From Sporopachydermia quercuum (taxonomy: Eukaryota), in the NCBI GenBank assembly GCA_001599295.1, contig BCGN01000002.1:930001-994000 (forward strand): a DNA stretch of 64,000 bases, in the 5' to 3' direction. The translations under genes and the position numbers were made by a program. The notes below the pieces were generated by a model that saw only the letters and a list, made by a program, of their open reading frames with translations, ran no database searches and was not told where the DNA came from. Each line of letters begins with the position of its first letter. The stretch's first letter is position 1. Positions 7,371 to 55,333 of the stretch are shown in pieces.

Positions 7371-8675
7371 TCAGTCGTACGATTCTAATGAAACTGATGT
7401 GTTCATTTTGGTAGCTGCATCATTAGACGAGGCATATGGTGAATCGTCACTTGGATGAGATGTTGAGAAACTGCCACTGTTCAGAGGTTTCCAGTTCTTG
7501 AGTCTATTCTGGTAAAAGCTGTCGGTTTGATTGTCTTGACTGATATGGGTTGTACAACTCTCATACTCATCTTGGGAACTATCCACATATCTGACCTTTC
7601 CATCAGAGATATTCTTGTGCACCATAGGAGGGTAAATATGCTGTTTGCTAGCCTTTGATTTTAAGATATATGCCGTATCTGACAATGATGGTTTCATCTT
7701 TACATTTTCCTTTCCATGCTCATACTTCGTTTTTGAACTTGAGTGATGCTTCTGTTGTTTATCACTATCACTTCTCTTCACAAGCTTCCTTTCCAGAAGC
7801 TTCAAAAGTTTAGCTTCTTTAGTATCCAGTATCTCCCTGAACAAAGAAGTATGTTCATTTGACTTCTTATATGTATCATCAAAGTCGTCTGCGTGATCTT
7901 GCGAATGCGGTTCTCTTGCTGTCAAATGGTGGATCTCTGACGTTCTATGTTTTTTGTTATAGATCTGATGTTGATCCACCAATTTTGATGGCAAATACTT
8001 CAGTTTTTCTTCATGTTTCAGCCAAACCATTATTTGAGAGAACGCTGTAGCAAGAATCAATACTGGATCAGTTTTCCCTTCATCAATCAGCACAGTAATT
8101 TCAGTTTGTTTCTTGTCATTTGCTCCAACTCTTGCTAATCTTTCACATATCACATCATGATCAGGAAGGTGCACTTTTGTTATCCTTTCTAAATATCCAG
8201 TTTGAAAACTCCACCGATAAGAAGTTTGAGCATTCCCTCTTGAAGTTTTGAATTCTGATATTCTACCCGAATCTTTAGGCACCAGCCTTATGGATTGTCT
8301 ATTGTGTTCTTCCTCGCATAAATCAACTGAGCATGATGAACCTACATGGGCAACAGATATAATAGCAACATCAGATTTAGAATGGCGTGCGTGCGAATCA
8401 ACCATTGAATAACGTTTTGCCCCAACAGATATCACATCAGGGTTCTTACATGGAAGGATATTATAAATTAATTTCCCCAACGAATCGAAAATTTGAAATG
8501 TATCCAATGAACACCTGCGGATTGTGTACACGCAAGGGTTCTTTGATAACGGAATCGTGTATCCAGATTCACTGACATTGGATATTTTGCGTGCCTTATG
8601 AATTCCAATTGCTCCTGTAACTAGGGATATAGTACCAACTCCTGAGAACACTAGAATGGGAACAACTATATCCAT
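7371..8675 (-). CDS. Hypothetical protein: N-terminal hydrophobic anchor, ~200-aa beta-rich domain, low-complexity His/Lys/Ser tail
   Basis: 434-aa ATG-initiated ORF filling the STH1-PAC1 gap; no family confidently recognised. Confidence 0.75.
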   Translation of the reverse strand: MDIVVPILVFSGVGTISLVTGAIGIHKARKISNVSESGYTIPLSKNPCVYTIRRCSLDTFQIFDSLGKLIYNILPCKNPDVISVGAKRYSMVDSHARHSKSDVAIISVAHVGSSCSVDLCEEEHNRQSIRLVPKDSGRISEFKTSRGNAQTSYRWSFQTGYLERITKVHLPDHDVICERLARVGANDKKQTEITVLIDEGKTDPVLILATAFSQIMVWLKHEEKLKYLPSKLVDQHQIYNKKHRTSEIHHLTAREPHSQDHADDFDDTYKKSNEHTSLFREILDTKEAKLLKLLERKLVKRSDSDKQQKHHSSSKTKYEHGKENVKMKPSLSDTAYILKSKASKQHIYPPMVHKNISDGKVRYVDSSQDEYESCTTHISQDNQTDSFYQNRLKNWKPLNSGSFSTSHPSDDSPYASSNDAATKMNTSVSLESYD

Positions 8676-15254: not shown

Positions 15255-17081
15255 TCACTGTATTTCTTTCTCTCTCATATTAACAAGTCTTTCAACATCA
15301 CTTTGACCCAAGCCAGCGCCATAGTTTCTAGCTTCTTTAACAAATCTAGTAAATGGTGGCCATGAGACATCAACTTTCACTCTTCCTTCATCGTCCAGGG
15401 GTAATTCTATAGTGCTGTAAGCTTCCACAACATCTTTCATCAATTCCCATAAGTCAGATTGAGTAAGATTAGAAATTCCAATCAAGCCTTCATTGGCAAC
15501 AGAGAAGTTTGAACCAAATAGTAAGAGTTTTATTCTCATCGCATCATCTTTCATGACGCCAGAGTCACGATCGTATTGTATGACATATTCCTGTTTAGCT
15601 TCCCGTGTTACCAATTTTTCTGCTTTACTATCATTCTGAAAAACATCAATTCCTCTTGTTAAACAACCTTCTACTAATTCATTATGACTGAGTCCCCAGA
15701 CACCTCCGAACTTACTAATTAAAAAGTCATCAGCACGAGTACTTTCAGTCCAACGAGTAATCAATTGTCCTGCTCTAGAAGCAGGATACAACACGCCAGG
15801 AACATATTCCCACTTCAATCTCAATGATGACAACAAACATTGACGTAAAGANTCAGCTTCTGCAGACGTCGATAATGCTGATTCCATTGCAGTTGAACGC
15901 ATAGCTTGCGTTAATACAGGAACGAGATTATTAGTAGTTAAAGAAGACGTGGAGGAATATACCAGTTTTTTCACATGATCTTTTATACTTTCAACTCTGT
16001 TTTTGGTAATATCGTCAAGAAGAGCTGATCTCGTCCTCAACATAATCTTTTCAATGAATTCTGGCCGAGCAGTTGATGGGACCCATTTGGGAAACAGGAT
16101 AGGGACTAAAGGAGCAGCAGGAACAACAAATAAAGACAACGGCAATGCAAAAAACAGAGCCTTATTGAAATTCGACGCTGTTCTACAAGCAATTTGATAT
16201 TGAGATCTGGTGATAGATTCGGGAGCCGGTAACGTGATTAACACATTATTTTTCTTATTGGACCTATCACTACCTCGTTTAGAAACTGTGGTAGATGTGA
16301 AAAAAGCAGTAGGAGCTAGTTTCTTCTCCAAAATCTCAGATCGAGCAGCAGCAAGAATTTCTTGTGTCATAGCATCTAATATTGCTTGCCTAGTTTTGAA
16401 TACAGTTGATTGTGATGATGAAGATGCTTTGAAATGATGACTAAAAGTACGGAGAAACCTTTTAGTTTTCATCCAAGTGAATACATGATAAAGTAGTGAT
16501 TCAAAATGTAGGGTATATGCATCCAAGACCAATTTAATTGTTTTGGCAATTGGATTGAAATGTTTATCTTTCCATGTGTGTTTCAGTGTACTATGATCAG
16601 GAAAAGTTCTATCAGCATTTAACATATCATGCATATCTTCCTTTGATGATATGTTGGATCTTAGTTTGCTGGGTGCTTTGCCAGATAAAACGTCTGCCTG
16701 ATCATTAATTGTGAACATAGGAAGGTAGCCGAACCAATTATGGGCAAAAATCGAGTTCTGCTTGATAGTGAAGTTATAGTTGTATATATCGATTAGAGGA
16801 GCACTTGGTGAATTCGGGTTTGTTGATTGTGCGTTATCACTGGATTGGATGAAGTTTGCGGAAAATGCTGATCTAGTATTCGTTATTTCTCCATGTTGGC
16901 TCTTCTGCATGGACTTTGAGGTTTTGAGACCTTTGATTTTCTCATCCGGAAATAGGATATCAACAGCCTTTTTAGAATCTTTTTGAATTTGGCTTTGACT
17001 GCTTTGAAATCTTACTGCCATCGTTTGAGCAAAAACTCTATGAACATGTTGATAAGGTGATAATCTATACCTTGACAACAT
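15255..17081 (-). CDS. PNT1: Mitochondrial LETM1-domain inner membrane protein, Pnt1-like
   Basis: Arg/Ser-rich presequence; Pro-rich TM segment (ALPLSLFVVPAAPLVPILFPKWVPST); ADDFLI..GGVWGLSHNELVEGCLTRG LETM1 motif; convergent with HRK1 like PNT1 in S. cerevisiae. Confidence 0.7.
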   Translation of the reverse strand: MLSRYRLSPYQHVHRVFAQTMAVRFQSSQSQIQKDSKKAVDILFPDEKIKGLKTSKSMQKSQHGEITNTRSAFSANFIQSSDNAQSTNPNSPSAPLIDIYNYNFTIKQNSIFAHNWFGYLPMFTINDQADVLSGKAPSKLRSNISSKEDMHDMLNADRTFPDHSTLKHTWKDKHFNPIAKTIKLVLDAYTLHFESLLYHVFTWMKTKRFLRTFSHHFKASSSSQSTVFKTRQAILDAMTQEILAAARSEILEKKLAPTAFFTSTTVSKRGSDRSNKKNNVLITLPAPESITRSQYQIACRTASNFNKALFFALPLSLFVVPAAPLVPILFPKWVPSTARPEFIEKIMLRTRSALLDDITKNRVESIKDHVKKLVYSSTSSLTTNNLVPVLTQAMRSTAMESALSTSAEAXSLRQCLLSSLRLKWEYVPGVLYPASRAGQLITRWTESTRADDFLISKFGGVWGLSHNELVEGCLTRGIDVFQNDSKAEKLVTREAKQEYVIQYDRDSGVMKDDAMRIKLLLFGSNFSVANEGLIGISNLTQSDLWELMKDVVEAYSTIELPLDDEGRVKVDVSWPPFTRFVKEARNYGAGLGQSDVERLVNMREKEIQ

Positions 17082-17667
17082 GTTACCGTATTATAGAATT
17101 TACCTTAAGGATTGGGGCTAGGTATGACGTTTGATATTAGCATGGCAAAAGGAGTAGCTATTTATATCACTTCATTAAAATTCCTAGTATACTACTGTAG
17201 AAATTGAGAGTAATGATTATTGAAATTAGTAGAGATATTGTTAAACATCTGAATCTTATTATGTATATCTGAATATTTCATTACTTTTTTTGTTAATGGA
17301 CGAATAAAATGTGTGAGAAAGAAATTTCGGAAATGATAAGCGGAAGGGAAGTATGCTGTACGTGGGGTGAGACTCGATAGTGAATCACGTGATGTGTATA
17401 TCATGCCTTTCTAGTTGAATTGAATTAATAAATGGCTGAAGGAAACGGAAACAGGGTATTTTTGTTCAATAATGAGCTGGTAATGAGCTCATAGTAAGAT
17501 TAAATATCAGATTAAAGATTAATTGGTTCACCAACAAATAATACAAGGTGCCGGGTTAGTGATATAGTTCATCGTCAATTGTATACACGCCACAGAAGTA
17601 ATAGTTGATTGATGTGATGTGATGTTTGGTATCCAACAACCCACAGCGAAGTCAGTATTTCAAACGC

Positions 17668-19305
17668 TCATTTCAATAAACAGCTGTAGAGTTGCCTATC
17701 GGAGGTGTCTTGTCCATATCGTAGACTCCATGAATATTTGAGGAATTGAAAGGACGAGAACTGATGGATCACAAATAGACTATTAGTATGATTGAAAACA
17801 GGAGTTTAAGGTATCAAATCTCTGAATAAGAGATTCAGATTGAAATTAAACAAAAATCAGGTAAATGTTACCTCTGGTATTTCTGAATCAGAGTGGAACA
17901 CATTATAAGCTCGTATGGCAGATCTGGTATCAAAATATTGGATAGAATATGATAAATATACATCATAAACTGGTACGATTTGAGCAATAGGGCCAAACTG
18001 TTCGAATTCGAGTTCAATCTGCAGAGAGGTTCTAGTTAGTAATAATAAAATGAACTGATAACAAACGCTAACGAACGATTTCTCAAGACTTCAAAATAAG
18101 GGTATACAGACTTCTTTAACATTTATCTCGTAGTAACCAAACTTAGATACTCTATTATATTGAGACAGACTAAAGCAGGTGGTGTCAATATGAGATAGTC
18201 TATCAGTACGAGATAGTACCAAACATCTTCTGGCACCACTTCCAAGCATTTCCGATCTAACGCTGTCATAATCGGTGTGCTTTGCATTGGTATAAATAGA
18301 ATTCTTCCTTGGTAATGTATGAATGGTATCAAATGTATACGGTAGTAATCTATGACCGTTAACAACAAAGAAACCTTTATCACAGTAGTAATAGAATTCT
18401 GCGGCACTTTCTTCGTTTAAGAAGCATATTTCTATCACACCATTGTGTCTTTCAGATATCGATTTGAGTGATCTTTGAGTACTTTCAGTATTATTGCTTC
18501 TATCAAATAGACTTATAGCTTGGATTGGACCTCCACCGATTTGAGCAATTAAAGAGTTGATACTTATGTTTGCTGGTAAGTTTTTCAACAGTACTGACCG
18601 TTTTGATTGGGTATTCATAAAGTACTTATCTTCCGGTGAATCATATCGAACTATTGAACCATAATTCGGATCAAATGTGGTATTATTCCCTTTCATTTTA
18701 CCTATCGGTTCACAGTCAACGTAAATATCATGATTTTGATGACCATCAAAATCGTAAACTGAGTTTTGGTTCATTGATTCAATTTGATCACAAGATAACT
18801 CTAAAGTGATTCGATCAAATGTACTGTCGTTACTATTGTTGAAATCACACAATAATTTGGTGTTCCTTTTATTATCTGCTTTTAGTAAATTATTTAAAGT
18901 ATCGTTTCCGTTAAAATCACTAGAGATATTGTTCCTAACAGAGTCTGATAAAAGCTCGGTTTTAATCATTTGCGTTGGTTCCTCAAGTAATCCGTTGACA
19001 TCTAGATAGCTTATAGCTTGCGAACAAGCCCATTGGCTAACGGACTTTGAATAGCTCTTTAACAAGTTTCTTAGCCTCCAACGGTCTTTGAGGTTCTTTG
19101 GCCAAATTGTACTGGCCATGTTACCGTTCAAAGCTTCTACTGAGTTTTTGTTGATATCATGATACCCCATGGAATTCTTATCTCTATTTGAGTTTTTCTT
19201 CTCTAGATCTAGCCGCTGGAAATATGAAGTCTGTTGCTGCAGTTTTTCAATTGAGTCTAAAGCAATTTCGTTAGTTTTGTTTGTAGTTATGACGGTTTTC
19301 AACAT
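17668..19305 (-). CDS. SSP2: Sporulation-specific RRM-like protein Ssp2; spliced join 19305-18112, 18018-17872, 17760-17668 (~477 aa)
   Basis: SVLLKNLP..SLIAQIGGGP in exon 1. Hand-spliced exon 2 IELEFEQFGPIAQIVPVYDVYLSYSIQYFDTRSAIRAYNVFHSDSEIPE and exon 3 FSSFQFLKYSWSLRYGQDTSDRQLYSCLLK* resemble the Ssp2 C-terminus (F..FG.I..I.P...DI.SA.RA; W..WYGKD.TD). Lies next to PUS7 as in S. cerevisiae. Confidence 0.82.
17761..17871 (-). other. SSP2 intron 2 (111 nt, phase 0)
   Basis: Donor GAG|GTAACA, branch TACTAAT 17788-17782, acceptor CAG 17763-17761; removal restores the conserved C-terminal motif. Confidence 0.75.
18019..18111 (-). other. SSP2 intron 1 (93 nt, phase 0)
   Basis: Donor GAA|GTCTGT, perfect branch TACTAAC 18041-18035, acceptor CAG 18021-18019; in-frame TGA if retained. 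Confidence 0.8.
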
Positions 19306-19906
19306 CTTGATGTCTGCGTTTCTATAAACAATGACGTCTATAGTCAACCGATGATCGTTGCTCGATAGGTGGATAGCAAATACTATGATAGGACGGGTAC
19401 ACTACGAGAACAAGACCTACTTCTTAGTAGCAAGCAATATTTTGAAAATGAAGCAATCCAAAGCTATTTTGATCAAGATAATAATAATATATTATATTTT
19501 AATACTGAAGGTTGATGGAAACACTATATTTCCAGCCCTAAAGACGACATACTTTGACGATTGGCAAAAGTAACAAAGAAGAGAATGATAGCAAATTATT
19601 TAGGTACTGAGTAACAAAGTCGAGCAAGCATTCTACATAGATTCCGCAATTTATTGCCAACTCCGGAAATGCCAATTTTCGGAAACTATATTAATATAGG
19701 ATATTATATTCCACAGATCTGAGGTATGTTTTCCGAAATATATAACCCATATCTATTTCCTAACCACCAGATTAATGCAACTTGTTAACTACTTATTGAT
19801 TACTTATACCTATATTGCTATATATACAAGAAATAATGGTTAGCAGAAGGTTGGATAAATTACAAATGAATATTGTTGTTTTGTTGCTAGTTCTATTAAT
19901 AGTAAC

Positions 19907-22147
19907 TCATACTGTAGATGTGGCATCAATCTTGACATTTTGGGCATCTCCTCTTCTTGATGTTTCTGTCTTCATAACTTCTCTCAAAGCCATTGTGGCA
20001 TAAGCCGATGTTCCAAGTTTCATTTTCAGAACAATTGCAGTTCTAGAACCTTCATTTCTAGTCTCTATTATCTGGCTGACATCCGTCTTTACTGGCTCAT
20101 CTGAATTCTCTCTATTCTGTTTCTCAATATCACGTTTCTCCTCCAAAACTTGTAAATCAGTCAAAACCATTTGCTCAACTTGATTTTCATACCTCTTAAG
20201 CCACCATTCAACATCAGAAGGCTTGGAAATCAAAGGTCTGTACGTTCCTGACAAGGAAAATTCCCTTATGTTTCTAGACATATTGAAAGGATCTAAACCA
20301 TCCTCTTTCATCTTATCGACATAGACTTGCCTCAACTTTTCATTTGTTGGATAAATAACGTCGAATCCAGGAGTGGGAAGAACTACATCATAAATAGTGA
20401 ACCTTCCTTGTTCGATTTCTTNCTCTGTAACAGGTCGAGCTCTAGTAAAAGGGTCTTCTTTCAAATCTTCTTTGAACGTCTCATCATCGTCAGTTTTTGT
20501 AGTAGCATTATTAGCTTCAACCGATGTATCGTTTGATTGATCAACAATTAGATCACCAGGTACAACAGATAATCCAAACAGCTCTATTCTTTTACTAGCA
20601 GCTGCGTTCCACACATGACTTTGATAAGCGTGACCATACATAACTCTAAGATTACGAGGAATTTGCATAACAGCAGCCAAGTATGAGTTCTTTTTTACAG
20701 ATTTACTAGCTTTCTCTTCTGCGGAATACCTACTGATTTCTTTCTCCAAGACGCGTAAAATGGCATGCTCAGCTGCACATTTCCTAGGCATTCTAGCCAA
20801 AGCATTTGTAGCATGTCTAGTTTCGTGCCAGATGTTCCGTGCTTCAACACTGTCGGGAGCAACAATCTCTTGCTTTGATAGTAATAATTCGCATGCTTTT
20901 CCCCATTCACCAGCAAGCAAATATTTACCCACAACGTGTGTGGAAATTGAAAATGTGCCAAACCTTTGCATACCAAAGTAATTGATAAATCCAACATCTC
21001 TTAGAGATTCCAGAGCTTTGACTATGTCATCTTTAGAAGAGCTTTCAACCTCGCGAATCGTAATGAGAAATTCATTACCAGTAAGATCACCCAATCGTAA
21101 TCCCGCATCACGATATTTCAAACCACCAATCTTCATTCCTCTTAATGTTCTGTTCAAACCATTCACTCTATCAGCTTTCATTTTATGGATAGACATATTC
21201 TGTACAGTAACACCTCTTCTATCCTTAGTTCCAGCATATCTCATGGATTTTGGGGCAATACGTAGGAATTTGGCAATCAATCCAGCTGCTTCCATAGTTT
21301 CTTTGTTTTCTTTGTACAATACAAAATGAAGATAATCTTTGGGAGCTCCTAAACTATCAATCCCTTCCGCAATACCACCAGGGGAAGAAATGCTTGTAGT
21401 ACTGCCATCTTGTTGAGGGCGTCTTTTAGGAAAAGATTGAGCAGATGATAATGCTATTTTGAATTTATTTTCTGCTGTTGTAAAAGAGTCAAGACGGCCA
21501 TGGAAAGCTTCTCTGAGTAATTGATGAAGACGGGTTCTTTCTTCCTTTGAAGTAAAACTTTTGCTGGTTTCTACATTTTTCCCAGTATGAAATAGCTCAA
21601 TGATAGCCTTTAAATCATCTTCTCCAATGAGATCAATTAATTGTGCTTTCTTTGATTCATCAATAGATTCAAAACTGAACTCTTCTTTAGTACTAGAACT
21701 AGTCTCAGATGTTTCTTGAGTAACACTGTCAATAGCTCTATCTTGTTCTCTTCGTTCTCTACGACGAGCCTTTTTATCCATAAATCCTGTATCATTCAGA
21801 TGAACTACATTTCCATTCAAATCAATTTCATTAACTAGGAAATCAGTGTATCTCTGCTTTAATATCCCTTTGAAGCCTGAGAGTTGAGGTGTGATGAATT
21901 GTGTGATACCGACATCTTCTTCTTGAATTCCTTTTTTTTTTGTGTATTTCCTCAGCTCTTCTTCTACGGATTTGAGAGTTGCTGCTAAATTTCCTTTGAG
22001 ATCTTCTTTCAGCTTCTTCGTTTCTGTTGATGATTCTTGTACATCAGCATTATTGGGCTCACTTTCCACAGCATCAAAGGACCGTTTTTTATCTTCTAGC
22101 GGTGCGACTGACGTGTGACCGTTTTCTGCAATATTTGAGTCTGTCAT
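19907..22147 (-). CDS. PUS7: TruD-family pseudouridine synthase
   Basis: GILKQRYTDFLVNEI, LYKENKET, catalytic AGTKDRRGVTVQ, GFINYFGMQRFG, YATMALRE. Confidence 0.97.
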   Translation of the reverse strand: MTDSNIAENGHTSVAPLEDKKRSFDAVESEPNNADVQESSTETKKLKEDLKGNLAATLKSVEEELRKYTKKKGIQEEDVGITQFITPQLSGFKGILKQRYTDFLVNEIDLNGNVVHLNDTGFMDKKARRRERREQDRAIDSVTQETSETSSSTKEEFSFESIDESKKAQLIDLIGEDDLKAIIELFHTGKNVETSKSFTSKEERTRLHQLLREAFHGRLDSFTTAENKFKIALSSAQSFPKRRPQQDGSTTSISSPGGIAEGIDSLGAPKDYLHFVLYKENKETMEAAGLIAKFLRIAPKSMRYAGTKDRRGVTVQNMSIHKMKADRVNGLNRTLRGMKIGGLKYRDAGLRLGDLTGNEFLITIREVESSSKDDIVKALESLRDVGFINYFGMQRFGTFSISTHVVGKYLLAGEWGKACELLLSKQEIVAPDSVEARNIWHETRHATNALARMPRKCAAEHAILRVLEKEISRYSAEEKASKSVKKNSYLAAVMQIPRNLRVMYGHAYQSHVWNAAASKRIELFGLSVVPGDLIVDQSNDTSVEANNATTKTDDDETFKEDLKEDPFTRARPVTEXEIEQGRFTIYDVVLPTPGFDVIYPTNEKLRQVYVDKMKEDGLDPFNMSRNIREFSLSGTYRPLISKPSDVEWWLKRYENQVEQMVLTDLQVLEEKRDIEKQNRENSDEPVKTDVSQIIETRNEGSRTAIVLKMKLGTSAYATMALREVMKTETSRRGDAQNVKIDATSTV

Positions 22148-22754: not shown

Positions 22755-24314
22755 ATGCCTGAATCAATCAAGCAAGTAGAATCTGTAGATTCTATCAACA
22801 TAGATCCAATAGTAAGTGTAATAGCAGAAACTGAAGAACAAACTGTGAGGGTAGCCCTACGGACTACTAACAATAAACAGAAAGCATATGAAAGTATTGA
22901 TAAAAAAAGGAAATTTTTGTTCGGAGATAATGAAGGAGATGTGTTGCCTCAAGATGATGTCAGTATACAAGCTTACAAAGAGGTGAAGAAACAAGAAGAA
23001 TATGCAAATTTGAAGCTCCCACAATATCTACAGGAAAGGATTGTCGCAGTAGCGACAAAAAATACTGTTTTTGCTAATAAGCCGAAAGTTTTGACAGCTG
23101 ACGCGGAGGAAAGCTCTCAACAACAACCGCAATTATTGCTTGAGAACGGCATGGATAGTAATAATAGCAGCAATACAACAAATATCCGTAACAATACATC
23201 TCAGTCATTAACAGTCAGAAGTAAATCTCCAGAACAGGCTAATAGGATAAACGAGGCAAATCAGAAACCTTTTGCTTCAGAAGGTACAACTTCTTTGATC
23301 AAACGACAGCAACAATATTATATGCAAGAGAAGCCAACATGGCATGCACCCTGGAAACTAATGAGAGTGATTGCCGGACACACTGGATGGGTTAGAAGTG
23401 TATGTGTAGAACCAGATAATCAATGGTTTGCAACAGGGGCAGGTGATCGTACGATCAAAATTTGGGATTTAGCGTCAGGACGTTTGAAGTTAACGTTGAC
23501 GGGTCATATTATGACTGTGAGAGGTATAGCTATATCCGATAGACATCCATATATGTTTAGCTGTAGTGAAGATAAAACTGTGAAATGTTGGGATCTAGAA
23601 AGGAATACAGCTATAAGAGATTATCACGGACATCTAAGTTCTGTATATTCGATTGACATTCATCCTACCTTAGATTTGATTATGACAGCTGGTAGAGATG
23701 CAGTAGTAAGAGTATGGGATATCAGAACAAGAGTACCTGTTTATGTCCTATCAGGACACAAATCAACTATCAGCCAAGTGAAATGTCAAGAAGCCGATCC
23801 TCAAGTGATAACAACGTCTATGGACTCTACAGTAAGATTATGGGATTTAACTGCAGGAAAAACTCAAACCGTTCTAACTCATCATAAAAAGTCAGTGAGA
23901 GGACTAGCAGTTCATCCAGAAGAGTTTACATTTGCCACAGCTAGTCCAGATAATATCAAACAGTGGAAATGTCCAGAGGGATCCTTTATGCTCAATTTTG
24001 AGCCTCGACATGAGGCCATTGTTAACACTTTGAGTGTAAACTCTGATAATATTCTTTTTAGCGGTGGTGATGATGGAAGTCTTGCATTTTTTGATTGGAA
24101 GTCTGGGCATAAATTCCAAGAGCTGACAACAACAGAGATGCCAGGGTCATTAGAATCTGAACGTGGTGTCTTTGCTAGTACATTTGATAGATCCGGATTA
24201 CGTCTTATCACCACCGAAGCTGATAAAACAATAAAAGTATGGCGGGAAGATCCAGAAGCAACTCCTGAGACTCATCCTGGTATTGAGTGGAAACCAAAAC
24301 CAGTAATGTTCTAG
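22755..24314 (+). CDS. PRP46: NTC splicing factor Prp46/PLRG1 (WD40)
   Basis: [49 protein letters not shown]. Confidence 0.97.
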
Positions 24315-24871: not shown

Positions 24872-26266
24872 ATGAGTGGTGGTGATGCAGAAAAGGATAC
24901 CTCTCCAGGGCCAATGAGAGAGAACGTGAAACCTGAAGAAGTGATTGTGGGATGTAAATGTCTAGCGGAGAAAGACGGAGAAAAACGTAAAGCAGAAATC
25001 ATTGCCGTCCATACAAGGAAAGGTAAACTGATATTTTATGTTCATTATCAGGATTTCAACAAGCGTTTAGATGAATGGATCTCTGGGGATCGAATTGACT
25101 TTAGCCAACCCATAGAATGGCCAAAATCTGCTACGCAGAAGAAAACTATTCCAGGTAGAGGCAAAGTACAGGGAAAAGACACGAAAAAGAAGAAAAAAGG
25201 AACGGATACAGGCGTTTCGACACCCAACACAGCCGAGGGAACTCCAGGTGGCTCAAGCAAAGAAGGAACTAGTGATGTTATGGATTTGGATAATTTGGAT
25301 GTTCAAGGATTGAAAAAACAAGCAGGTGATGATTATTCTAGAGAAGATGAAATCAAAAAATTGAGGACGTCTGGCTCAATGACGCAAAATAACTCAGAAG
25401 TTGCCAGAGTACGAAATCTTTCTAAAATCATTATTGGCAATCATATAATTGAACCGTGGTATTTCTCACCGTATCCCATTGAACTAACTGAAGAGGATGT
25501 ATTATACATATGCGATCTTTCTATGAGCTATTTTGGATCCAAGAAACAATTTGAAAGATTCAGAAAGAAGTGTACCTTGAGACATCCTCCTGGTAATGAA
25601 ATTTACAGAGATGATTATGTATCGTTCTGGGAGATTGATGGTAGAAAACAAAGAACTTGGTGTCGAAATCTATGTCTGTTCTCTAAGTTATTTCTTGATC
25701 ATAAGACGTTGTATTACGATGTTGATCCTTTTCTTTTTTACTGTATGACGAGAAAAGACGAACTAGGTCATCATTTAGTAGGGTATTTTTCAAAAGAGAA
25801 AGAATCTGCAGATGGGTATAATGTGGCATGTATTCTTACGTTACCACAGTATCAGCGACATGGATATGGACGTTTATTGATCCAGTTTTCATATGAATTA
25901 TCTAAAAAAGAGGGAAAAGTTGGATCGCCCGAAAAACCGTTGTCTGATTTAGGTCTAATGAGTTACCGAGCGTATTGGTCTGATAGTTTAACGATATTAT
26001 TATGTGAACTAGTAGAAGAAAAGAAAGAAGTAACCATTGATGAGATATCAGGTTTAACGGCCATGACTACAACTGATATTCTTCATACTTTACAAGCTTT
26101 GAACAGTCTAAAGTATTATAAAGGTTCACATATTATATGCATAACTGATGCTTTAAAGGAAAAGTATGACAAGCTGATGAAGAAGAATAGAAGAGTACTG
26201 GACCCAGCAAAACTGATATGGACACCTCCGATTTTCACGGCCTCACAGTTAAGATTTGGATGGTAA
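24872..26266 (+). CDS. ESA1: NuA4 MYST histone acetyltransferase
   Basis: Chromo-barrel FYVHYQDFNKRLDEW, EIKKLRTSGSMTQ, KLFLDHKTLYYDVDPF, GSPEKPLSDLG, C-terminal QLRFGW. Confidence 0.98.
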   Translation: MSGGDAEKDTSPGPMRENVKPEEVIVGCKCLAEKDGEKRKAEIIAVHTRKGKLIFYVHYQDFNKRLDEWISGDRIDFSQPIEWPKSATQKKTIPGRGKVQGKDTKKKKKGTDTGVSTPNTAEGTPGGSSKEGTSDVMDLDNLDVQGLKKQAGDDYSREDEIKKLRTSGSMTQNNSEVARVRNLSKIIIGNHIIEPWYFSPYPIELTEEDVLYICDLSMSYFGSKKQFERFRKKCTLRHPPGNEIYRDDYVSFWEIDGRKQRTWCRNLCLFSKLFLDHKTLYYDVDPFLFYCMTRKDELGHHLVGYFSKEKESADGYNVACILTLPQYQRHGYGRLLIQFSYELSKKEGKVGSPEKPLSDLGLMSYRAYWSDSLTILLCELVEEKKEVTIDEISGLTAMTTTDILHTLQALNSLKYYKGSHIICITDALKEKYDKLMKKNRRVLDPAKLIWTPPIFTASQLRFGW

Positions 26267-32159: not shown

Positions 32160-32837
32160 CTAATTGAATATATCANCAGGTTTATCCGCTATGTTTTGAT
32201 TATTTGCTTCCATTACCTGCTGCCTGGTTATAACATAGGAAGATGATGGAGGTTGTCTTGGAAGATAATACTTCAAAGAAAGCTGTTTTATTGGAGATTT
32301 CCCTGCCTCTGTCAATATATAGGAAGATGATTTCTTTAATGTTGACGCTTTTGAATCTGCTACAATCGAAGTTGTACCAGGCATAACAAAAGATGGAGCT
32401 GGTAACGGTTCTTTGGTATTGCTAACGAGATTGTGAATTGAAGGTTTTGATGGTTTGTCAGAAGGAACAGAAGGTAGGTCTATCTTTGGAACAGACTTTT
32501 CATGAGTATAGAGCTCGTTTGATGATGCAGATCTTCTAGCAATGTACTGCGATTGAAATGAGTAGAGCTTTTTCGATTTTGGTGTCAGTGTTGAAGATGA
32601 AGGAACTGAAAATCGTTGATGCTGTATGAGTTGAGATATGTTATCAATAAAAGGATCTGACGATTTATTTTGTGATGGGGCTGATATTCTCTTACTCATT
32701 GATTTATTCCTCCTTTGTACTTGCTGTTGTGATTCTAGTGATGATGAATGTATTGATGACAGAGAATTACTGATCCAGAAAGAAGGAGACGACGGTGGAA
32801 ATAATGGACTACCCAAATATTCTGGTTCGTAAGTCAT
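32160..32837 (-). CDS. Hypothetical Ser/Pro-rich protein, probably disordered
   Basis: 225-aa ATG ORF with A at -3, not overlapping another gene; no domain recognised. Confidence 0.55.
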   Translation of the reverse strand: MTYEPEYLGSPLFPPSSPSFWISNSLSSIHSSSLESQQQVQRRNKSMSKRISAPSQNKSSDPFIDNISQLIQHQRFSVPSSSTLTPKSKKLYSFQSQYIARRSASSNELYTHEKSVPKIDLPSVPSDKPSKPSIHNLVSNTKEPLPAPSFVMPGTTSIVADSKASTLKKSSSYILTEAGKSPIKQLSLKYYLPRQPPSSSYVITRQQVMEANNQNIADKPXDIFN

Positions 32838-38223: not shown

Positions 38224-38444
38224 NNCNNNTNANNTTNNNNNNNNTTNNNNNTNNTNNNNNANNNNNAANNNNNNNGNNNNTNNNNNNNNNCNNTNNTTTN
38301 NNTNNCCNNNNANNNNNNNNNNTTTNGNNNNNNNNNNNNANNNNANNNAAANTNNAANNAANNAANNNNTNNNNNAANNNNNNNNANTNANNNTTNANGN
38401 TNNNNNNTNNNNTNNNNTNNNNTTNNNAANCNTNANNGNAANNN
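38224..38444. other. Block of mostly ambiguous bases (unresolved consensus)
   Basis: ~220 nt dominated by N with isolated called bases. Confidence 0.95.
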
Positions 38445-38977: not shown

Positions 38978-40624
38978 CTACTCAACAATCAACTCATCTG
39001 TTATCTGCCTGGTTAATGGCTTCCAGTTTTTTGACCTCCATGCTTTTAATGACTTCTCATTATACATTTCATCAACTTCTTCTAAACTTAAGCCTTTAGT
39101 TTCATAGATACAAAACATTACAAAGAGGAGTCCAGTTAAAGTACCAGCAGCAAAACAATAACCAAGGTAAAATCCTATCTTCTCAATAATATATGGAGTT
39201 GCCAAAGCAATCCAAATATTCATTGACCAATTTCCTGCAATAGCTAAAGCAATTCCTTTAGATTTAATTCTCAAAGGATACGTTTCACTAACAATAACAA
39301 AAGGAATTGGTGCCCAAGTTGAAGCAAAAGCTGAAATATAAAGGCAAGTTGCAGTAATCAAGATGTTTCCGACAACCTTGTTAGTTTGACCATTTTCTTG
39401 CTCCAAGGCAAAAGCACCCAAAGAAGCATAAGTAATTAAACAACAAAACATAACGACTGAGCCAACCATTAATGGTAATCTCCTTCCAAACCGATCTATA
39501 ACATAGAGACCAATAAAGGTGCTAACAAAATTAACTGCACCCAAAATGATCGAGGTAAGAAAAGGGTCGACCATACCAACGGAAGCAAAAATTTTGGTTC
39601 CATAATAAAAGAAATAATTGTTACCAGTCAGTTGCTGGAGCATTTGAACAGCAACTCCAACAAACACTCTGTATCCAAGTCTTGGTTTACCAGCAAATAA
39701 TTCTTTCCAAGAGGCATTCCCAAGTTCCTTTTCATTGTCAATGGCATTGTAGATCTCATTAAAAACAGCAATTGATTCTTGACTATCAGGATCCCAATTG
39801 TTAACTTTTCCAATAGATTTTCTGGCCTCATCAAATCTATTCTTCTGAATTAAATATCTTGAAGATTCTGGGATGAAATAAACACCAACTGCGAGAATTA
39901 TACCCCAGAGGAACATCAAGATGGAAAGGATTTTCCACTGAGAATTACTTTCTAAATGTTTGATACCGAAAGCACAACAATAACCAATAAGGATTCCAAT
40001 AGTAATCATTAATTGGTAACAAGATACAAGGGTACCTCTTATTTGTCTTGGGGCAGTTTCAGAAATGTACAAAGGAGATACAACAGCAGTAGCACCAACA
40101 GCAACACCACAGAAAAATCTTCCAATTGCATAATTATACCAGTGAGAAGTTGAAGTAAATTGAACAATGGCACCAGCTAAATAAATTGAAATATTAATCA
40201 GCAAACTTTTTTTTCTACCATATTTTTCAGCAATCTTGCTAAGGAAAATACCACCAAACAAAGCACCAATATTGAATACTGCAACTATGACTCCCAGTAT
40301 TATCTGTGGTATTTCATACAAACCAGTATCTTCAATTAAATCTCCAAAGTACATATTGAAATGGATCATGTTGATGATACCTGAGATAGTGCCTATATCC
40401 CATCCAAAGAGGAAACCACCAAAGGCAGCAATAAAGCAGAAGAAGACAGCAGGAAAAAATTTAATGATCAGTGAGAACATCTTAGCTGAGTCGTTATCAG
40501 AAGGTTTCTCCGTGGAAGTGTTAGATGAAGAAGAAGAAATGCCATTGTTTAGGCTGCTGAATATCATAGAGGGTTTAGGCCTAGCCGTAAAGAAGGAAGA
40601 TGTATTGCGGTCGAAAAGACTCAT
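38978..40624 (-). CDS. Sugar porter MFS hexose transporter (HXT family)
   Basis: AFGGFLFGWD.GTISG, ISETAPRQIRG.LVSCYQLMIT, PES, QQLTGNNYFFYYG, FGRR, ETKGLSLEEVDEMY. Confidence 0.93.
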   Translation of the reverse strand: MSLFDRNTSSFFTARPKPSMIFSSLNNGISSSSSNTSTEKPSDNDSAKMFSLIIKFFPAVFFCFIAAFGGFLFGWDIGTISGIINMIHFNMYFGDLIEDTGLYEIPQIILGVIVAVFNIGALFGGIFLSKIAEKYGRKKSLLINISIYLAGAIVQFTSTSHWYNYAIGRFFCGVAVGATAVVSPLYISETAPRQIRGTLVSCYQLMITIGILIGYCCAFGIKHLESNSQWKILSILMFLWGIILAVGVYFIPESSRYLIQKNRFDEARKSIGKVNNWDPDSQESIAVFNEIYNAIDNEKELGNASWKELFAGKPRLGYRVFVGVAVQMLQQLTGNNYFFYYGTKIFASVGMVDPFLTSIILGAVNFVSTFIGLYVIDRFGRRLPLMVGSVVMFCCLITYASLGAFALEQENGQTNKVVGNILITATCLYISAFASTWAPIPFVIVSETYPLRIKSKGIALAIAGNWSMNIWIALATPYIIEKIGFYLGYCFAAGTLTGLLFVMFCIYETKGLSLEEVDEMYNEKSLKAWRSKNWKPLTRQITDELIVE

Positions 40625-41632: not shown

Positions 41633-43150
<1,518 letters not shown>

Positions 43151-51934: not shown

Positions 51935-52080
51935 TCTCAAGGGATAAGCGTTGCTTCTGTAATCTTGTAATGACCAACTGGCTGGTTTATATTGAAATCA
52001 TGAGAGGAGTGCAAAAACAGTCAATGAATGGATAGAAATAACTATACAATCATGTGGTTGGAACTATTTTATGTTGAGGA

Positions 52081-52107
52081 TGAACTTTTCACTTCATTTG
52101 AGATGAG
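52081..52107. promoter_or_regulatory. RRPE-like plus PAC module upstream of RAI1
   Basis: TGAAAAGTTCA (minus, 52091-52081) beside GAGATGAG (52100-52107), ~150 bp upstream of a gene involved in rRNA processing. Confidence 0.55.
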
Positions 52108-55100
52108 ATGTTAGAGACTTGTTTAGGTGATATAAGACGGAAGTTATAATGAGTGTGCGAAAATATGATTTCCAGAATCCGTCAATGAAGTCTGAGTATG
52201 GATGATGAAGAGTAGGTGCCCTTTATTGTAGTTCTGCTATTTTATGTCAATAGGAAATATCTTGGGAGTAAATAACGATTGATATTTAAGTTGACTTACG
52301 TATAATATTCACATTAAATATAATATTAAGCGTGATCTATATAAGCATATATATATGTACCTACCAAAACTGGGGATTAAAACTGTTTCCTGCAATGGTT
52401 GGACCACGTGATCTGGTACAGAAGAATCTGAACTTGGGAACAGATAGCAATTATACTTGCTTATCAGTCTTCCTTCAGGTATTGAAACATGCTCTTTTCC
52501 TTCAACGATTAGTTCTGATTGTCAGTTATTGTCAAAAAATGGGGAAAGCGGTAGTCAAAACACTGCATTTACCAGCGGCACCGGCAATTGATCAAATTAT
52601 ACTTTGCTCACCATTCATCTACTACTCGTAATATCCTATGACGCAAATAAGACCGTTGGATTTCTATATATAAGCAGTATGTTACCAACATCTATGCTAA
52701 AAGATCTCGAATTCATCAATAATTCTTCCGAGTATTTTCTTCATTGAGATATTTTAGTTCCCTCGGATAGCACTAATCAGGAAGTTTCATAACTGATAAG
52801 CCGTTCCTCTTTAATTGAGTTTCTAACGGCGTAAAAATAGTGCACAGTAACTTGTTCAATTGGATATTGGTTTGTCTAAACAAAGGTATAAAGAAATAGG
52901 TTGATGTACTCATATCATAACTCGTTTAAGAAATACATTGAAAGATAGAAACGTCTTGGAGCTGTTTGTGTCCAGAATAAGGCAAGTCTTATAATAGTTG
53001 CTCTGTGATTGCGGGTTATGTGTTCATGATTAAGACGGTATTACAATATCACTGTCGAAGCATTTCCCGGAAACAATCACTTGGTTTCGATAATAGTTAT
53101 GAATTATAAATATTTTGTGCGTTTCAAAAGATGATATAACAACTAAGTATTAGTTTAATGCTCACTTCATTATATGAGATTCGACTACATCACCCAACTA
53201 TATCTCAGTCCGCGCGAATTAGCTGCCTAATTAATACCCTACAATTAATGTAGAGAACCGTTAATTTGTCACAACACGTCATTCTCCACATAATTTGCAT
53301 CTTTACCACGCGTGAAAATACATTATTGCAGTAGAATGGTTATTTTCATTTTTTTTCTTATACGATACACGTTCAGCTATGGAACTTGTCGATTTCTTAT
53401 ATTAAAAGTATAGATCAATACAATTAGTGATCAATAAGGAAGCGGATAGAGAAAAGGTTTAACAGAAGACTTATGAGGCGAGAACCGATGTGACAAGACA
53501 AGACAATTTGGGACTTTTTGCGATATTGCATTTATGTCATGAAATAACCAAGAAGTAAGACATATGGCTAAACGGACAGAAAATTCATGACTATGTACGG
53601 AAAGAATGATAAGAGGATGAGCTACAAATGGAAGAGTAAAAACGAGCGGTTAAGTATCTTCTAAAAGAAGATCGGCAACTTACAAACTTACGGAAAATAA
53701 CAGTGCCAACAGAAACGTTAAGCAATAATACTTTATCTGAGCTGCAAATCCAAATTTAGGGGAAAGGTCAAAAAGTTAGCTAGCAATACTATCGAAGTTG
53801 AACAGTTTTGGTACCCTCTAGTCATTGTTAACATGTCTTCAGAACTAGTTTGTTACAATAATATCAATTCCATTACTTGCCAGCAACCGCAAATTCGTGT
53901 AGAAAGATAATATAGAAGCAACAAACATTGTATCAACTATTGATTGAATAGTTTATCAAATCAAATCTCCAGTATGATAAGTTTGTTGTCTATGAAGACC
54001 GATTCAAAACCCATTATAATATAAAGTTCAANAATATAAATATAAGGTTTGACAATAAATGAAGTTTAATGCAGTATATAATAACAAGCATCAAAGTTTA
54101 ACAACCTTTTTCGCAATCCTCTTTCTCAAGATGTCGATTGAAAGATACTTCTTGTCAACTGGTACAGGATATAAATATCTTTGAAGATATGGAGCAGATT
54201 TGATATAAAAATCAAGCAAAAAGCTCTTGAAAAGCAAATTTTCAACTTTTCTAAGTTGAGAGAAAATTTGGTTGTGAAGATAGTTTGTTTGTATAAAAAT
54301 TACTAGTAAGCAGTATCCACAATCGTAAGATAATTATGATTCTCGTTCATCATTTGCACCCTCCATCAAACGATGAAAGTAAAACAAGCTAAATCAACAA
54401 TCTTAGGTAATCAAGTCCAGATTTCAGCTTGCTTTAGTGGTGTTTGCCATAATTGTGTTAGGCATTGCTCTTAGCCATAAGAATTGACCCTTTCCCTTTT
54501 TGTAATTATGGTCTATTGGTTGTTTATGGGTCAATGTTCTGTTGATTTTGAAGAAGCCACTGCAACTTTGATCAAACAAAAAAAATAACAGATGGTAGTT
54601 TAATGGTTGTTACTTGTACTCAAAAGAATATTTAGATTAATGGTTTTGATATTTATATCAGATTATCGTGAAATCATACATCATTCTGAGTTGACTCTAG
54701 TTGAAATAATTATTTGAGTTTGATCTTTGATCAATTCTCTCTTTTATGGCAAGTCATTATAGCTTTTGAAGCTTTTTTTTAAATAAACCAATATTTGATT
54801 TAAGTATTTCAAAGTNNNNACTACCTTAGCTAACAGCTGATGACCAAAAAGAAACTGTAGTTTCACTAGATTTTATATATTCACAACACAGTGTGGAGAA
54901 GATCTTTGAGGTGTTAGGCAACGGGATTCGAAACAACAACATAACTTGTATTTACATCAAAAGAAAGCGAAATTAGATTGAATGTTTTCAATATACTTAA
55001 ATAGTGCCAAAATCTTCTTTATGAGATATTTCAAATTCTTTGGCAAAAGGGAGTAAAAAGACAAAAAGTAAACAGGCGGCTGTTGTAAGTAAAACGTACC

Positions 55101-55318
55101 ACTGTCAAATATCTGAGCCTTACACATTTTCAGTAAGCTTTAAATGTTAAATTCAGCTTAATATTACCAAAATATTCACTATGTAATTTTCTCCATTGTT
55201 GGTAATCCTCACCTATGAGTGCGGTATTCAATTCCTTTTTGTCTGGTATCTTACATTCTGGCGAAAGCGGCCTAAATAGGACCCATATTGATTACAAGTG
55301 GCAATATAGTCGACACAT

Positions 55319-55333
55319 ACACACACACACACA
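55319..55333. repeat. (AC)n microsatellite
   Basis: acacacacacacaca. Confidence 0.85.

What the first reader, a model, noticed from the sequence alone, without database searches (positions are those of the whole stretch)
18098..18111. Exact Mer1-type splicing enhancer next to a non-consensus donor in meiotic SSP2: candidate meiosis-regulated splicing system
Seen: intron 1 begins GTCTGT-ATACCCTT (enhancer at +7 to +14, 18105-18098) and has a perfect TACTAAC branch. The two housekeeping introns in this window use consensus GTATGT and GTAAGT. Known: in S. cerevisiae the KH protein Mer1, with Nam8, activates splicing of REC107/MER2, HFM1/MER3, SPO22 and AMA1 through an AYACCCUY enhancer close to weak 5' splice sites; SSP2 is not a target there. 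Inference: a Mer1-like regulon with a different target in a probably distant yeast. By rough composition estimate a match within 25 nt of a given donor has odds near 1 in 1000. The same 8-mer also occurs in intergenic DNA at 33202, and +7 is very close to the U1-pairing region.
Basis: partly seen in the sequence, partly recalled or inferred. Interest (0 to 1): 0.8.

Follow-up and report, generated by a model that had tools for sequence, protein, structure and literature searches.

The report
Candidate Mer1-type enhancer in SSP2 intron
A sporulation gene of an isolated budding-yeast lineage carries, right after a weak splice site, the exact 8-letter signal that baker's yeast uses to switch on splicing only in meiosis; the signal and the intron are real, but whether it works as such a switch could not be tested here.

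Summary
On the minus strand a 93-nt intron (18111-18019) starts GTCTGT, is followed at once by ATACCCTT (+7 to +14, 18105-18098) and has TACTAAC. The host gene is a true SSP2 orthologue. It has weak but specific hits to proteins that sources name Ssp2, it sits next to PUS7 and ESA1, and the conserved C-terminus appears only when this intron and a second one (GTAACA donor) are removed.

The motif is not enriched in the window: 4 copies against 5.08 expected. A copy within 25 nt of one given donor has odds of about 6-8 in 10,000.

The Mer1 reading could not be tested. No genome, no RNA run and no close relative were available. Points against it:
- The site lies nearer the donor than the 18-25 nt reported for known targets.
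- Intron 2 has a poorer donor and no motif.
- Two gene trees place the organism just outside the clade where Mer1-type KH proteins are reported.

I put a working Mer1-type enhancer at about even odds and a chance match slightly lower. The scan had flagged only the known S. cerevisiae MER2 and MER3 cases before.

The parts
18112..19305 (-). SSP2-like gene, exon 1 (398 codons: N-terminal region and the first RRM-like part)
   Evidence: The ORF is. phmmer against 1.84 billion proteins gave 21 hits at E<=1e-3, best 2.7e-11. Sources name some of them 'Sporulation-specific protein 2' or 'Ssp2p'.
18019..18111 (-). Intron 1, 93 nt, phase 0
   Evidence: Removing it joins ...EINVKE|IELEFEQFGPI... without a gap against 20 homologues. 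The region is unstructured: z = +1.68, and 193 of 200 shuffles fold at least as well.
18106..18111 (-). Donor GTCTGT (C at +3)
   Evidence: It matches 7 of 10 positions of the ideal U1-complementary string when +7 and +8 are counted (the U1 sequence is recalled).
18098..18105 (-). ATACCCTT, an exact match to the Mer1 enhancer consensus AYACCCUY, at +7 to +14
   Evidence: It is the same 8-mer as the S. cerevisiae SPO22 enhancer AUACCCUU (Qiu 2011, passages read).
18035..18041 (-). Branch site TACTAAC, branch A 17 nt before the AG
17872..18018 (-). Exon 2 (49 codons, core of the second RRM-like fold)
   Evidence: It aligns colinearly with the homologues.
17761..17871 (-). Intron 2, 111 nt, donor GTAACA, branch TACTAAT (17788-17782), 3' CAG; no AYACCCUY
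   Evidence: If it is retained, the frame stops after VTFT*.
17859..17873 (-). Small hairpin AGGUAA/CAU/UUACCU covering the intron-2 donor
   Evidence: dG -4.6 kcal/mol. The whole region folds no better than shuffles (z = -1.04).
17668..17760 (-). Exon 3 (30 codons plus stop), conserved C-terminal W-x-x-x-YG-x-D block
   Evidence: blastp alignments of the spliced product reach query residues 468-475 of 477 in the 20 homologues aligned end to end. The best E-value improves from 2.7e-11 (phmmer, exon 1 alone) to 1.5e-32 (blastp in the script, spliced product, small local database, so the two values are not strictly comparable).
19907..22147 (-). PUS7-type pseudouridine synthase, synteny anchor
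   Evidence: Pfam TruD, 6.7e-71.
24872..26266 (+). ESA1 histone acetyltransferase, synteny anchor
   Evidence: Pfam MOZ_SAS, Tudor-knot and zf-MYST. Homologues are named ESA1.

Best explanation
The 8-mer is a working intronic splicing enhancer of the Mer1 type in the SSP2 orthologue of a deep-branching budding yeast.

What is shown: SSP2 here is split by two obligatory introns inside the region that corresponds to the Smk1-activating C-terminal domain. Intron 1 has a donor with C at +3, followed directly by AUACCCUU.

What is inferred: in vegetative or early meiotic cells the intron is removed poorly, and the unspliced RNA gives a protein cut off 6 codons into the intron. In meiosis a KH-domain protein of the Mer1 kind binds the ACCCU core (+9 to +13) next to the U1:5' splice-site helix. 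Together with the U1 snRNP protein Nam8, it stabilises U1 on the weak donor. Full-length Ssp2 is then made only during sporulation. In this yeast, splicing would add, or replace, the post-transcriptional delay that S. cerevisiae imposes on Ssp2 by translational repression.
For: - The match to AYACCCUY is exact, the CCC is intact, and the sequence is identical to the SPO22 enhancer.
- It lies within 25 nt of the donor, as Qiu 2011 states for AMA1, MER2 and MER3.
- The chance of such a placement at one donor is 5.7e-4 to 8.1e-4.
- The donor is non-consensus relative to the 3 other introns in the window. [quoted passage not shown]
- The region is unstructured, so the site would be accessible.
- The host is the orthologue of a meiosis-specific gene whose product is held back after transcription in S. 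cerevisiae. It acts in the same pathway as the Mer1 target AMA1 (abstract listing).
- Of 14 meiotically spliced S. cerevisiae transcripts surveyed, 4 are Mer1 targets. The prior for a meiotic weak-donor intron is therefore not small wherever Mer1 exists.
- Mer1 is older than Saccharomycetaceae. Syntenic homologues are reported in Phaffomycetaceae, Ascoideaceae and Saccharomycopsidaceae. KH domains with the Mer1-type Gln are aligned from Debaryomyces hansenii and Pichia pastoris.
Against: - No Mer1, Nam8 or expression data for this organism could be examined.
- The organism falls just outside the clade that holds all lineages with reported Mer1-type proteins. The sister clade has support 0.983 (ESA1) and 1.0 (STH1).
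- The site starts at +7, whereas a 2024 review gives 18-25 nt for the known enhancers. Its first two letters can pair with U1 nucleotides 2 and 1 (U1 sequence recalled).
- Intron 2 of the same gene has a poorer donor (GTAACA) and no enhancer. It must be spliced some other way, which weakens the step from 'weak donor' to 'needs Mer1'.
- Total U1 complementarity of the intron-1 donor equals that of the other donors, 7 of 10.
- The motif is at chance frequency in the window.
- No conservation test was possible.
- No MSE or URS1 core lies in the 601 bp upstream. Only about 0.3 MSE cores are expected there by chance, so this says little.
Confidence: 0.45

Rival explanations
1. The 8-mer is a chance match. 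Intron 1 is an ordinary, obligatory intron, and the 8-mer has no sequence-specific reader. Ssp2 production is limited to sporulation by transcription. It may also be limited by the general inefficiency of both deviant introns, which would be spliced better when ribosomal-protein transcripts stop competing for the spliceosome in meiosis.
For: - The motif count in the window is at expectation: 4 against 5.08, and 77 of 100 shuffles have at least 4. Three other copies lie in places with no plausible role.
- The evidence is one 8-mer in one intron, with no conservation or enrichment data.
- The position is atypical.
- Intron 2 has the poorer donor and no motif.
- The lineage lies outside the reported Mer1 range.
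- Meiotic introns of S. cerevisiae in general have weaker splice signals and respond to spliceosome availability (passages read).
Against: - A match within 25 nt of a given donor is expected only 6-8 times in 10,000.
- Here it falls in one of the two introns of the only sporulation gene identified in the window, next to a deviant donor.
- It is the commonest published form of the enhancer.
Confidence: 0.4
2. The sequence is functional but not as a Mer1 site. The A and U at +7 and +8 lengthen the U1:5' splice-site helix to make up for the C at +3. The pyrimidine-rich CCCUUAUUUU that follows is a binding site for Nam8 (TIA-1 type) or another poly(C)-binding KH protein. Either would help constitutive recognition of the donor.
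For: - +7 A and +8 U complete 4 contiguous pairs (+5 to +8) with the U1 5' end. This brings the donor to 7 of 10 matches, like the other donors (U1 sequence recalled).
- U1 nucleotides 3-10 pair with the splice site, and the first 10 nucleotides are identical in yeast and human (passage read).
- Nam8 and TIA-1 act on U-rich or pyrimidine tracts next to 5' splice sites.
- A PCBP2 KH domain recognises ACCCT.
Against: - The 30 nt after the donor are not richer in U or pyrimidine than those of 3 of the 4 other introns (11 U and 16 Y, against 13-17 U and 17-21 Y; the WD40 candidate has 5 U and 9 Y).
- This does not explain why the letters give the full 8-of-8 consensus.
Confidence: 0.1
3. The gene model is wrong or the gene is decaying. 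The two 'introns' would be disruptions of a pseudogene, or the real product would be the 404-residue exon-1 protein.
For: Yeast introns near the 3' end of a gene are unusual (general knowledge). Pfam finds no domain in exon 1 or exon 2 alone.
Against: - Both intervals have a donor, a TACTAAC or TACTAAT branch and a YAG at proper spacing, and both are in phase 0.
- After removal, exons 2 and 3 align without gaps to the most conserved part of 20 homologues, up to residues 468-475 of 477.
Confidence: 0.03

Closest known systems
S. cerevisiae SPO22/ZIP4 intron (Mer1/Nam8 regulon; Qiu, Schwer and Shuman 2011, PMC3082912, passages and section 18 read)
   Same: It has the identical enhancer 8-mer AUACCCUU between donor and branch point. 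It is a short intron (about 90 nt, recalled) with a non-consensus donor, in a meiosis-specific gene.
   Different: The SPO22 donor is GUAUAU, with a deviant branch (AACUAAC) and a deviant 3' site (AAG). Here the branch is a perfect TACTAAC and the 3' site is CAG. Mer1 dependence is shown for SPO22 and untested here. The enhancer here abuts the donor hexamer.
S. cerevisiae AMA1 intron (Mer1/Nam8 target)
   Same: It is a Mer1-dependent intron in a gene needed for the late meiotic and spore-formation programme. Ama1 promotes binding of Ssp2 to Smk1 (abstract listing), so the pathway is the same.
   Different: It is a different gene. Its enhancer is reported within 18-25 nt of the donor, not at +7.
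S. cerevisiae PCH2 intron (Nam8-dependent, Mer1-independent)
   Same: It shows that a meiotic intron can depend on U1 auxiliary factors without a Mer1 site. This is a model for SSP2 intron 2 and for the rival readings.
   Different: PCH2 has a consensus donor. Its dependence comes from a long 5' exon and a deviant branch point.
S. cerevisiae SSP2 (activator of the Smk1 MAPK; Tio et al. 2015, PMC4591697, passages read)
   Same: It is orthologous by sequence and by gene neighbourhood. The C-terminal kinase-activating domain is the conserved part. Production is gated after transcription.
   Different: The S. cerevisiae gene has no intron (recalled; it is absent from the 14 spliced meiotic transcripts), and its gate is translational repression until anaphase II. 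The gene here is split twice inside the C-terminal domain.

Membership tests
Mer1/Nam8-dependent meiotic introns | Intronic AYACCCUY with an intact CCC triplet | tested here: met
   ATACCCTT at 18105-18098. The CCC requirement is from Qiu 2011.
Mer1/Nam8-dependent meiotic introns | Enhancer near the 5' splice site (within 25 nt; 18-25 nt in a 2024 review) | tested here: inconclusive
   The site spans +7 to +14. This is inside 'within 25 nt' but nearer than '18-25 nucleotides', and it overlaps possible U1 pairing at +7 and +8.
Mer1/Nam8-dependent meiotic introns | Non-consensus 5' splice site | tested here: met
   GTCTGT against GTAAGT, GTAAGT and GTATGT in the 3 other introns of the window. 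Caveats: only 3 introns are available for comparison, and U1 complementarity is equal at 7 of 10.
Mer1/Nam8-dependent meiotic introns | Mer1 orthologue (KH domain with the equivalents of Arg214 and Gln243) encoded in the genome | not testable with these tools
   No genome is held. None of the ORFs I scanned against Pfam has a KH domain.
Mer1/Nam8-dependent meiotic introns | Nam8 and Snu56 present | not testable with these tools
   No genome is held.
Mer1/Nam8-dependent meiotic introns | Poor splicing in vegetative cells, activated in meiosis or by Mer1 | not testable with these tools
   No RNA run was listed.
Mer1/Nam8-dependent meiotic introns | Motif kept in orthologous introns of related species | not testable with these tools
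   No close relative was found. The best exon-1 hit is 2.7e-11 with identities of at most 38%. The word search gave none of 2386 candidates. The metagenome scan gave 44 pattern matches and 0 relatives.
Ssp2 (Smk1-activator) family | Sequence homology to proteins named Ssp2 | tested here: met
   There are 21 hits at E<=1e-3. Named members are Cyberlindnera fabianii 'Sporulation-specific protein 2' and C. jadinii 'Ssp2p'. The spliced product reaches E 1.5e-32 in a local blastp.
Ssp2 (Smk1-activator) family | Conserved C-terminal domain up to the W-x-x-x-YGKD block | tested here: met
   It is present only after both introns are removed. It aligns colinearly in 20 of the 21 hits; the 21st, P0139, aligns only locally and looks spurious.
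Ssp2 (Smk1-activator) family | Gene neighbourhood SSP2-PUS7-ESA1 | tested here: met
   TruD/PUS7 is at 19907-22147 and ESA1 at 24872-26266, with a WD40 gene between them. In Wickerhamomyces mucosus the locus tags 001409 (ESA1) and 001412 (SSP2 homologue) have the same spacing. The S. cerevisiae order YOR242C, 243C, 244W is recalled.
Ssp2 (Smk1-activator) family | Meiosis-specific expression and activation of Smk1 | not testable with these tools
   Inferred from S. cerevisiae.

The most novel reading that the evidence does not exclude
A Mer1-type, enhancer-driven meiotic splicing switch is older than the common ancestor of Saccharomycetaceae and Pichiaceae, and its target set has been rewired. 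In this deep-branching yeast it gates SSP2, the activator of the sporulation MAP kinase Smk1, by splicing inside the kinase-activating domain. S. cerevisiae gates the same protein by translational repression and uses Mer1 on AMA1 one step upstream. The enhancer would also work directly beside the U1:5' splice-site helix (+7), a geometry not described for Mer1.
Probability: 0.35. Interest if true: 0.65.

Novelty: new member of a known kind. Interest (0 to 1): 0.45.

Why it matters
Mer1 is the textbook case of a cell-type-specific splicing activator in budding yeast, but its regulon has been defined only in S. cerevisiae. In the papers I could search, conservation is described only for the sensu stricto species, together with presence or absence of the MER1 gene elsewhere.

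A working enhancer in SSP2 of a lineage outside all families with reported Mer1-type proteins would show three things. The switch would be ancient. Its targets would turn over within one pathway (AMA1, then Ssp2, then Smk1). Post-transcriptional gating of Ssp2 would be a conserved need met by different means.

It would also give a natural test of how close to the U1 helix a KH-type activator can act. The mechanism of Mer1 is still called unknown.

If the match is chance, the locus is simply an SSP2 orthologue with two 3'-located introns. That is worth correct annotation but is otherwise ordinary.

Tried and rejected
- Whole genome: none is held. A search for Mer1 or Nam8, a genome-wide intron census and a motif-enrichment test were therefore impossible.
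- RNA evidence: no RNA holder was listed for 15853-20421.
- Rfam on the whole window: no hit, so no U1 or other snRNA to check pairing against.
- Word-based homologue search with exon 1: none of 2386 candidates at E<=0.001.
- Exact look-up of six window proteins: none is in the collection.
- Metagenome scan for SSP2 loci. The single-protein query gave 44 pattern matches and 0 relatives.
- Earlier scan notes: nothing for this genome, by place or by sequence. A word search returned only the known S. cerevisiae MER3 and MER2 cases. Nothing relevant came up for SSP2.
- Papers not held: Munding 2010, Spingola 2004 and Balzer & Henry 2008. Spingola & Ares 2000 was not sought. The exact enhancer-to-donor distances in the four known targets therefore rest on two secondary statements.
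- Supplements of PMC8567612: only the review history is held, so the species table for MER1 could not be seen. It may bear on how far down the tree MER1 was sought.
- Alternative donor GTATAC, 4 nt downstream: rejected. It would shift the frame, while the homology-supported junction is gap-free at GTCTGT.
- CUG reassignment: rejected. CTG codons sit at invariant Leu columns of ESA1 (120 of 120 and 118 of 120).
- Promoter motifs: no CRCAAA or GGCGGC in the 601 bp upstream. This is uninformative, since about 0.3 are expected.
- Secondary structure hiding the intron-1 donor or enhancer: none.
- Literature on a Mer1 regulon outside Saccharomyces, or on SSP2 introns: searches found none beyond PMC8567612, PMC5570110 and the Fig. 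5 legend of PMC3082912.
Full report
**What is in the sequence**

On the minus strand an ORF of 398 codons (19305-18112) runs into GTCTGT (18111-18106). This is followed without a gap by ATACCCTT (18105-18098, intron positions +7 to +14). TACTAAC lies at 18041-18035 and an AG at 20-19 of 180xx, giving a 93-nt, phase-0 intron. Read through, the frame stops after six codons.

A 49-codon exon (18018-17872) follows. Then comes a second interval of 111 nt (17871-17761) with donor GTAACA, TACTAAT and CAG, and a last exon of 30 codons (17760-17668).

**Is the gene SSP2, and are the introns real?**

- Pfam sees nothing in exon 1 or exon 2 alone, and a word-based search found no homologue.
- A full phmmer pass of exon 1 over 1.84 billion representative proteins gave 21 hits at E<=1e-3, the best at 2.7e-11.
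- I looked up ten of them. The named ones include 'Sporulation-specific protein 2' of Cyberlindnera fabianii and 'Ssp2p' of C. jadinii. There are also unnamed-function proteins of Wickerhamomyces mucosus, Ogataea and Candida arabinofermentans.
- In a script I joined the three exons by coordinates and compared the 477-residue product with the 21 hits. Twenty of them align end to end, up to query residues 468-475, with no gap at either junction. The best E-value is 1.5e-32. This comes from blastp against a small local database, so it is not strictly comparable with the phmmer value. The 21st hit, P0139, aligns only locally and looks spurious.
- Exon 2 supplies the F-G-x-I ... S-A-I-x-A-K core, and exon 3 the W-x-x-x-Y-G-K-D end, of the most conserved part of the family.
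- The neighbours are a TruD/PUS7 gene, a WD40 gene and ESA1. In W. mucosus the ESA1 and SSP2-homologue locus tags are three apart. In S. cerevisiae SSP2, PUS7 and ESA1 are adjacent (recalled).

The gene is therefore an SSP2 orthologue, and both introns must be removed to make the conserved C-terminal domain. Whether the homologues' genes have introns cannot be seen, because I had no DNA for them.

**Is the placement more than chance?**

AYACCCTY occurs four times in the window, always as ATACCCTT. Shuffles give 5.08 +/- 2.15, so the motif itself is not enriched. The other copies are as follows:
- one is intergenic (33202);
- one lies in an ORF-poor stretch, directly before a GGTAAGT (55766);
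- one is antisense to an ABC-transporter gene (61494).

From composition the motif has probability 4.75e-5 per position. That is 5.7e-4 to 8.1e-4 for a start within 12-17 positions after a given donor. I found five introns in the window, one of them only a candidate. The window-wide chance is therefore about 0.3-0.4%, and about 0.1-0.2% for the two SSP2 introns.

**The donors**

- The three other introns start GTATGT (PTPA gene, confirmed by Pfam across the two exons) and GTAAGT (PEP4-like protease). The third also starts GTAAGT (WD40 gene). That candidate is in frame and free of stops, so it is not proven.
- GTCTGT and GTAACA both depart from these.
- Counted over -2 to +8 against the U1 5' end (sequence recalled), all five donors match 7 or 8 of 10 positions. 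Intron 1 makes up for C at +3 with A at +7 and U at +8, which are the first two letters of the 8-mer. Intron 2 makes up for +5 and +6 with AG in the exon.
- Intron 2 keeps neither G5 nor U6, lacks any AYACCCUY, and has its donor in a small hairpin of -4.6 kcal/mol.
- The intron-1 region is, if anything, less structured than shuffles.

**What is known**

- In S. cerevisiae, Mer1 binds AYACCCUY in AMA1, MER2, MER3 and SPO22. The enhancer is said to lie within 25 nt of the donor.
- The CCC triplet, and Arg214 and Gln243 of the KH domain, are essential. The weak donor is what makes these introns Mer1/Nam8-dependent. The SPO22 enhancer is exactly AUACCCUU (Qiu 2011: passages and section 18).
- A 2024 review places the enhancers '18-25 nucleotides' from the donor and calls the mechanism unknown (passages).
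- Four of 14 meiotically spliced transcripts are Mer1 targets, and SSP2 is not on the list.
- Regulon conservation has been described for the sensu stricto species (passages).
- MER1 has syntenic homologues in Phaffomycetaceae, Ascoideaceae and Saccharomycopsidaceae, and was lost in Saccharomycodaceae (Papaioannou 2021: passages and section 6).
- Qiu 2011 aligns Mer1-type KH domains from Debaryomyces hansenii and Pichia pastoris as well (figure legend).
- Ssp2 of S. cerevisiae is the meiosis-specific activator of the Smk1 MAP kinase. It is transcribed from an Ndt80 middle promoter but translated only at anaphase II, and its C-terminal part is the kinase-activating domain (Tio 2015: passages).
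- Ama1, itself a Mer1 target, promotes Ssp2-Smk1 binding (abstract in a search listing).

**Which organism?**

- No close relative is in the collections. The best ESA1 identity is 70% and the best STH1 identity 76%, and the window's own proteins are not on record.
- CTG is read as Leu: two ESA1 CTG codons fall in columns with 120 of 120 and 118 of 120 Leu.
- I built FastTree trees of ESA1 (45 sequences) and STH1 (45 sequences). For these I chose the named hits plus 13 (ESA1) and 19 (STH1) of the best unnamed ones out of the 120 listed.
- Both trees place the organism outside a well-supported clade of Saccharomycetaceae, Phaffomycetaceae, Pichiaceae and the CUG clades (support 0.983 and 1.0). 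Both place it inside the clade that excludes Dipodascaceae/Trichomonascaceae and Lipomycetaceae.
- These are single-gene trees with a long query branch, so the placement is provisional.
- If it holds, the organism branches just below every lineage for which a Mer1-type protein has been reported.

**Weighing**

The chance rate is low, below 1 in 1000 per donor. Even a modest prior for 'Mer1-type protein present, same specificity, this intron a target' therefore competes with it.

- With a prior of roughly 0.15-0.3 for the protein, 0.05-0.1 for the intron and a penalty of 0.1-0.3 for the odd position, the posterior runs from about one half to nine tenths.
- If +7 is sterically impossible for Mer1, it falls to about one quarter.
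- These priors are my judgement, not measurements.

I discount the upper range for four reasons: intron 2 has the poorer donor and no motif, the comparison rests on only 3 other introns, the lineage lies just outside the range of reported Mer1-type proteins, and the priors themselves are guesses. I settle on 0.45 for a working Mer1-type enhancer and 0.40 for a chance match in an ordinary obligatory intron. In the chance reading, any meiotic bias would come from weak signals and spliceosome availability. I give 0.10 to a different function of the same letters, namely extended U1 pairing plus a pyrimidine-tract reader. I give 0.03 to a wrong gene model.

**What could not be done**

No genome, no RNA run, no relatives' DNA and no U1 gene in the window were available. 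The primary papers with the enhancer positions were not held. The supplementary species table for MER1 was not readable. The decisive tests are a genome search for the Mer1-type KH protein, a genome-wide count of the motif near donors, and RT-PCR in vegetative against sporulating cells.

**Verdict**

The gene identity, the need for splicing and the 'distant yeast' part of the interpretation are supported. The regulatory claim remains an untested candidate at about even odds. If true, it is a new member of a known kind of switch, one that widens the switch's phylogenetic range and changes its target. If false, the locus is an ordinary intron.

Noticed in passing
window 17859-17873 (-): The GTAACA donor of SSP2 intron 2 lies in a 6-bp hairpin AGGUAA/CAU/UUACCU (dG -4.6 kcal/mol). 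The 3' arm has the same letters as the U1 5' end (recalled), so it could compete with U1 for the donor. The region as a whole folds no better than shuffles (z = -1.04).
   Followed up: partly
window 41633-43150 (-): This is a PEP4-like aspartyl protease (Pfam Asp, 1.4e-98). Its signal-peptide exon is separated from the main exon by a roughly 330-nt intron with donor GTAAGT at 43042. The only branch-like sequence near the 3' end is TATTAAC.
   Followed up: partly
window 22812-22880 (+): A candidate 69-nt intron (GTAAGT ... TACTAAC ... CAG) lies near the start of the WD40 gene between PUS7 and ESA1. It is in frame and has no stop, so it could be coding, retained or spliced. It was not checked against homologues.
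   Followed up: no
window 52000-57900: About 6 kb upstream of a PDR-type ABC transporter has no ORF of 120 codons or more. One ATACCCTT copy (55766, minus strand) sits directly before GGTAAGT there.
   Followed up: partly
window 38224-38444: There is a dense run of N letters (a masked stretch) just beyond the 3' end of the minus-strand sugar-transporter gene (38978-40624). Single Ns are scattered elsewhere, 192 in all.
   Followed up: no
window 7371-8675 (-) and 32160-32837 (-): Two ORFs of 434 and 225 codons have no Pfam match at E<=0.01.
   Followed up: no
whole window: The organism uses CTG as Leu. By ESA1 and STH1 trees it branches outside Saccharomycetaceae, Phaffomycetaceae, Pichiaceae and the CUG clades, but inside the clade that excludes Dipodascaceae and Lipomycetaceae. 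No protein closer than 70% (ESA1) or 76% (STH1) is in the collections.
   Followed up: yes
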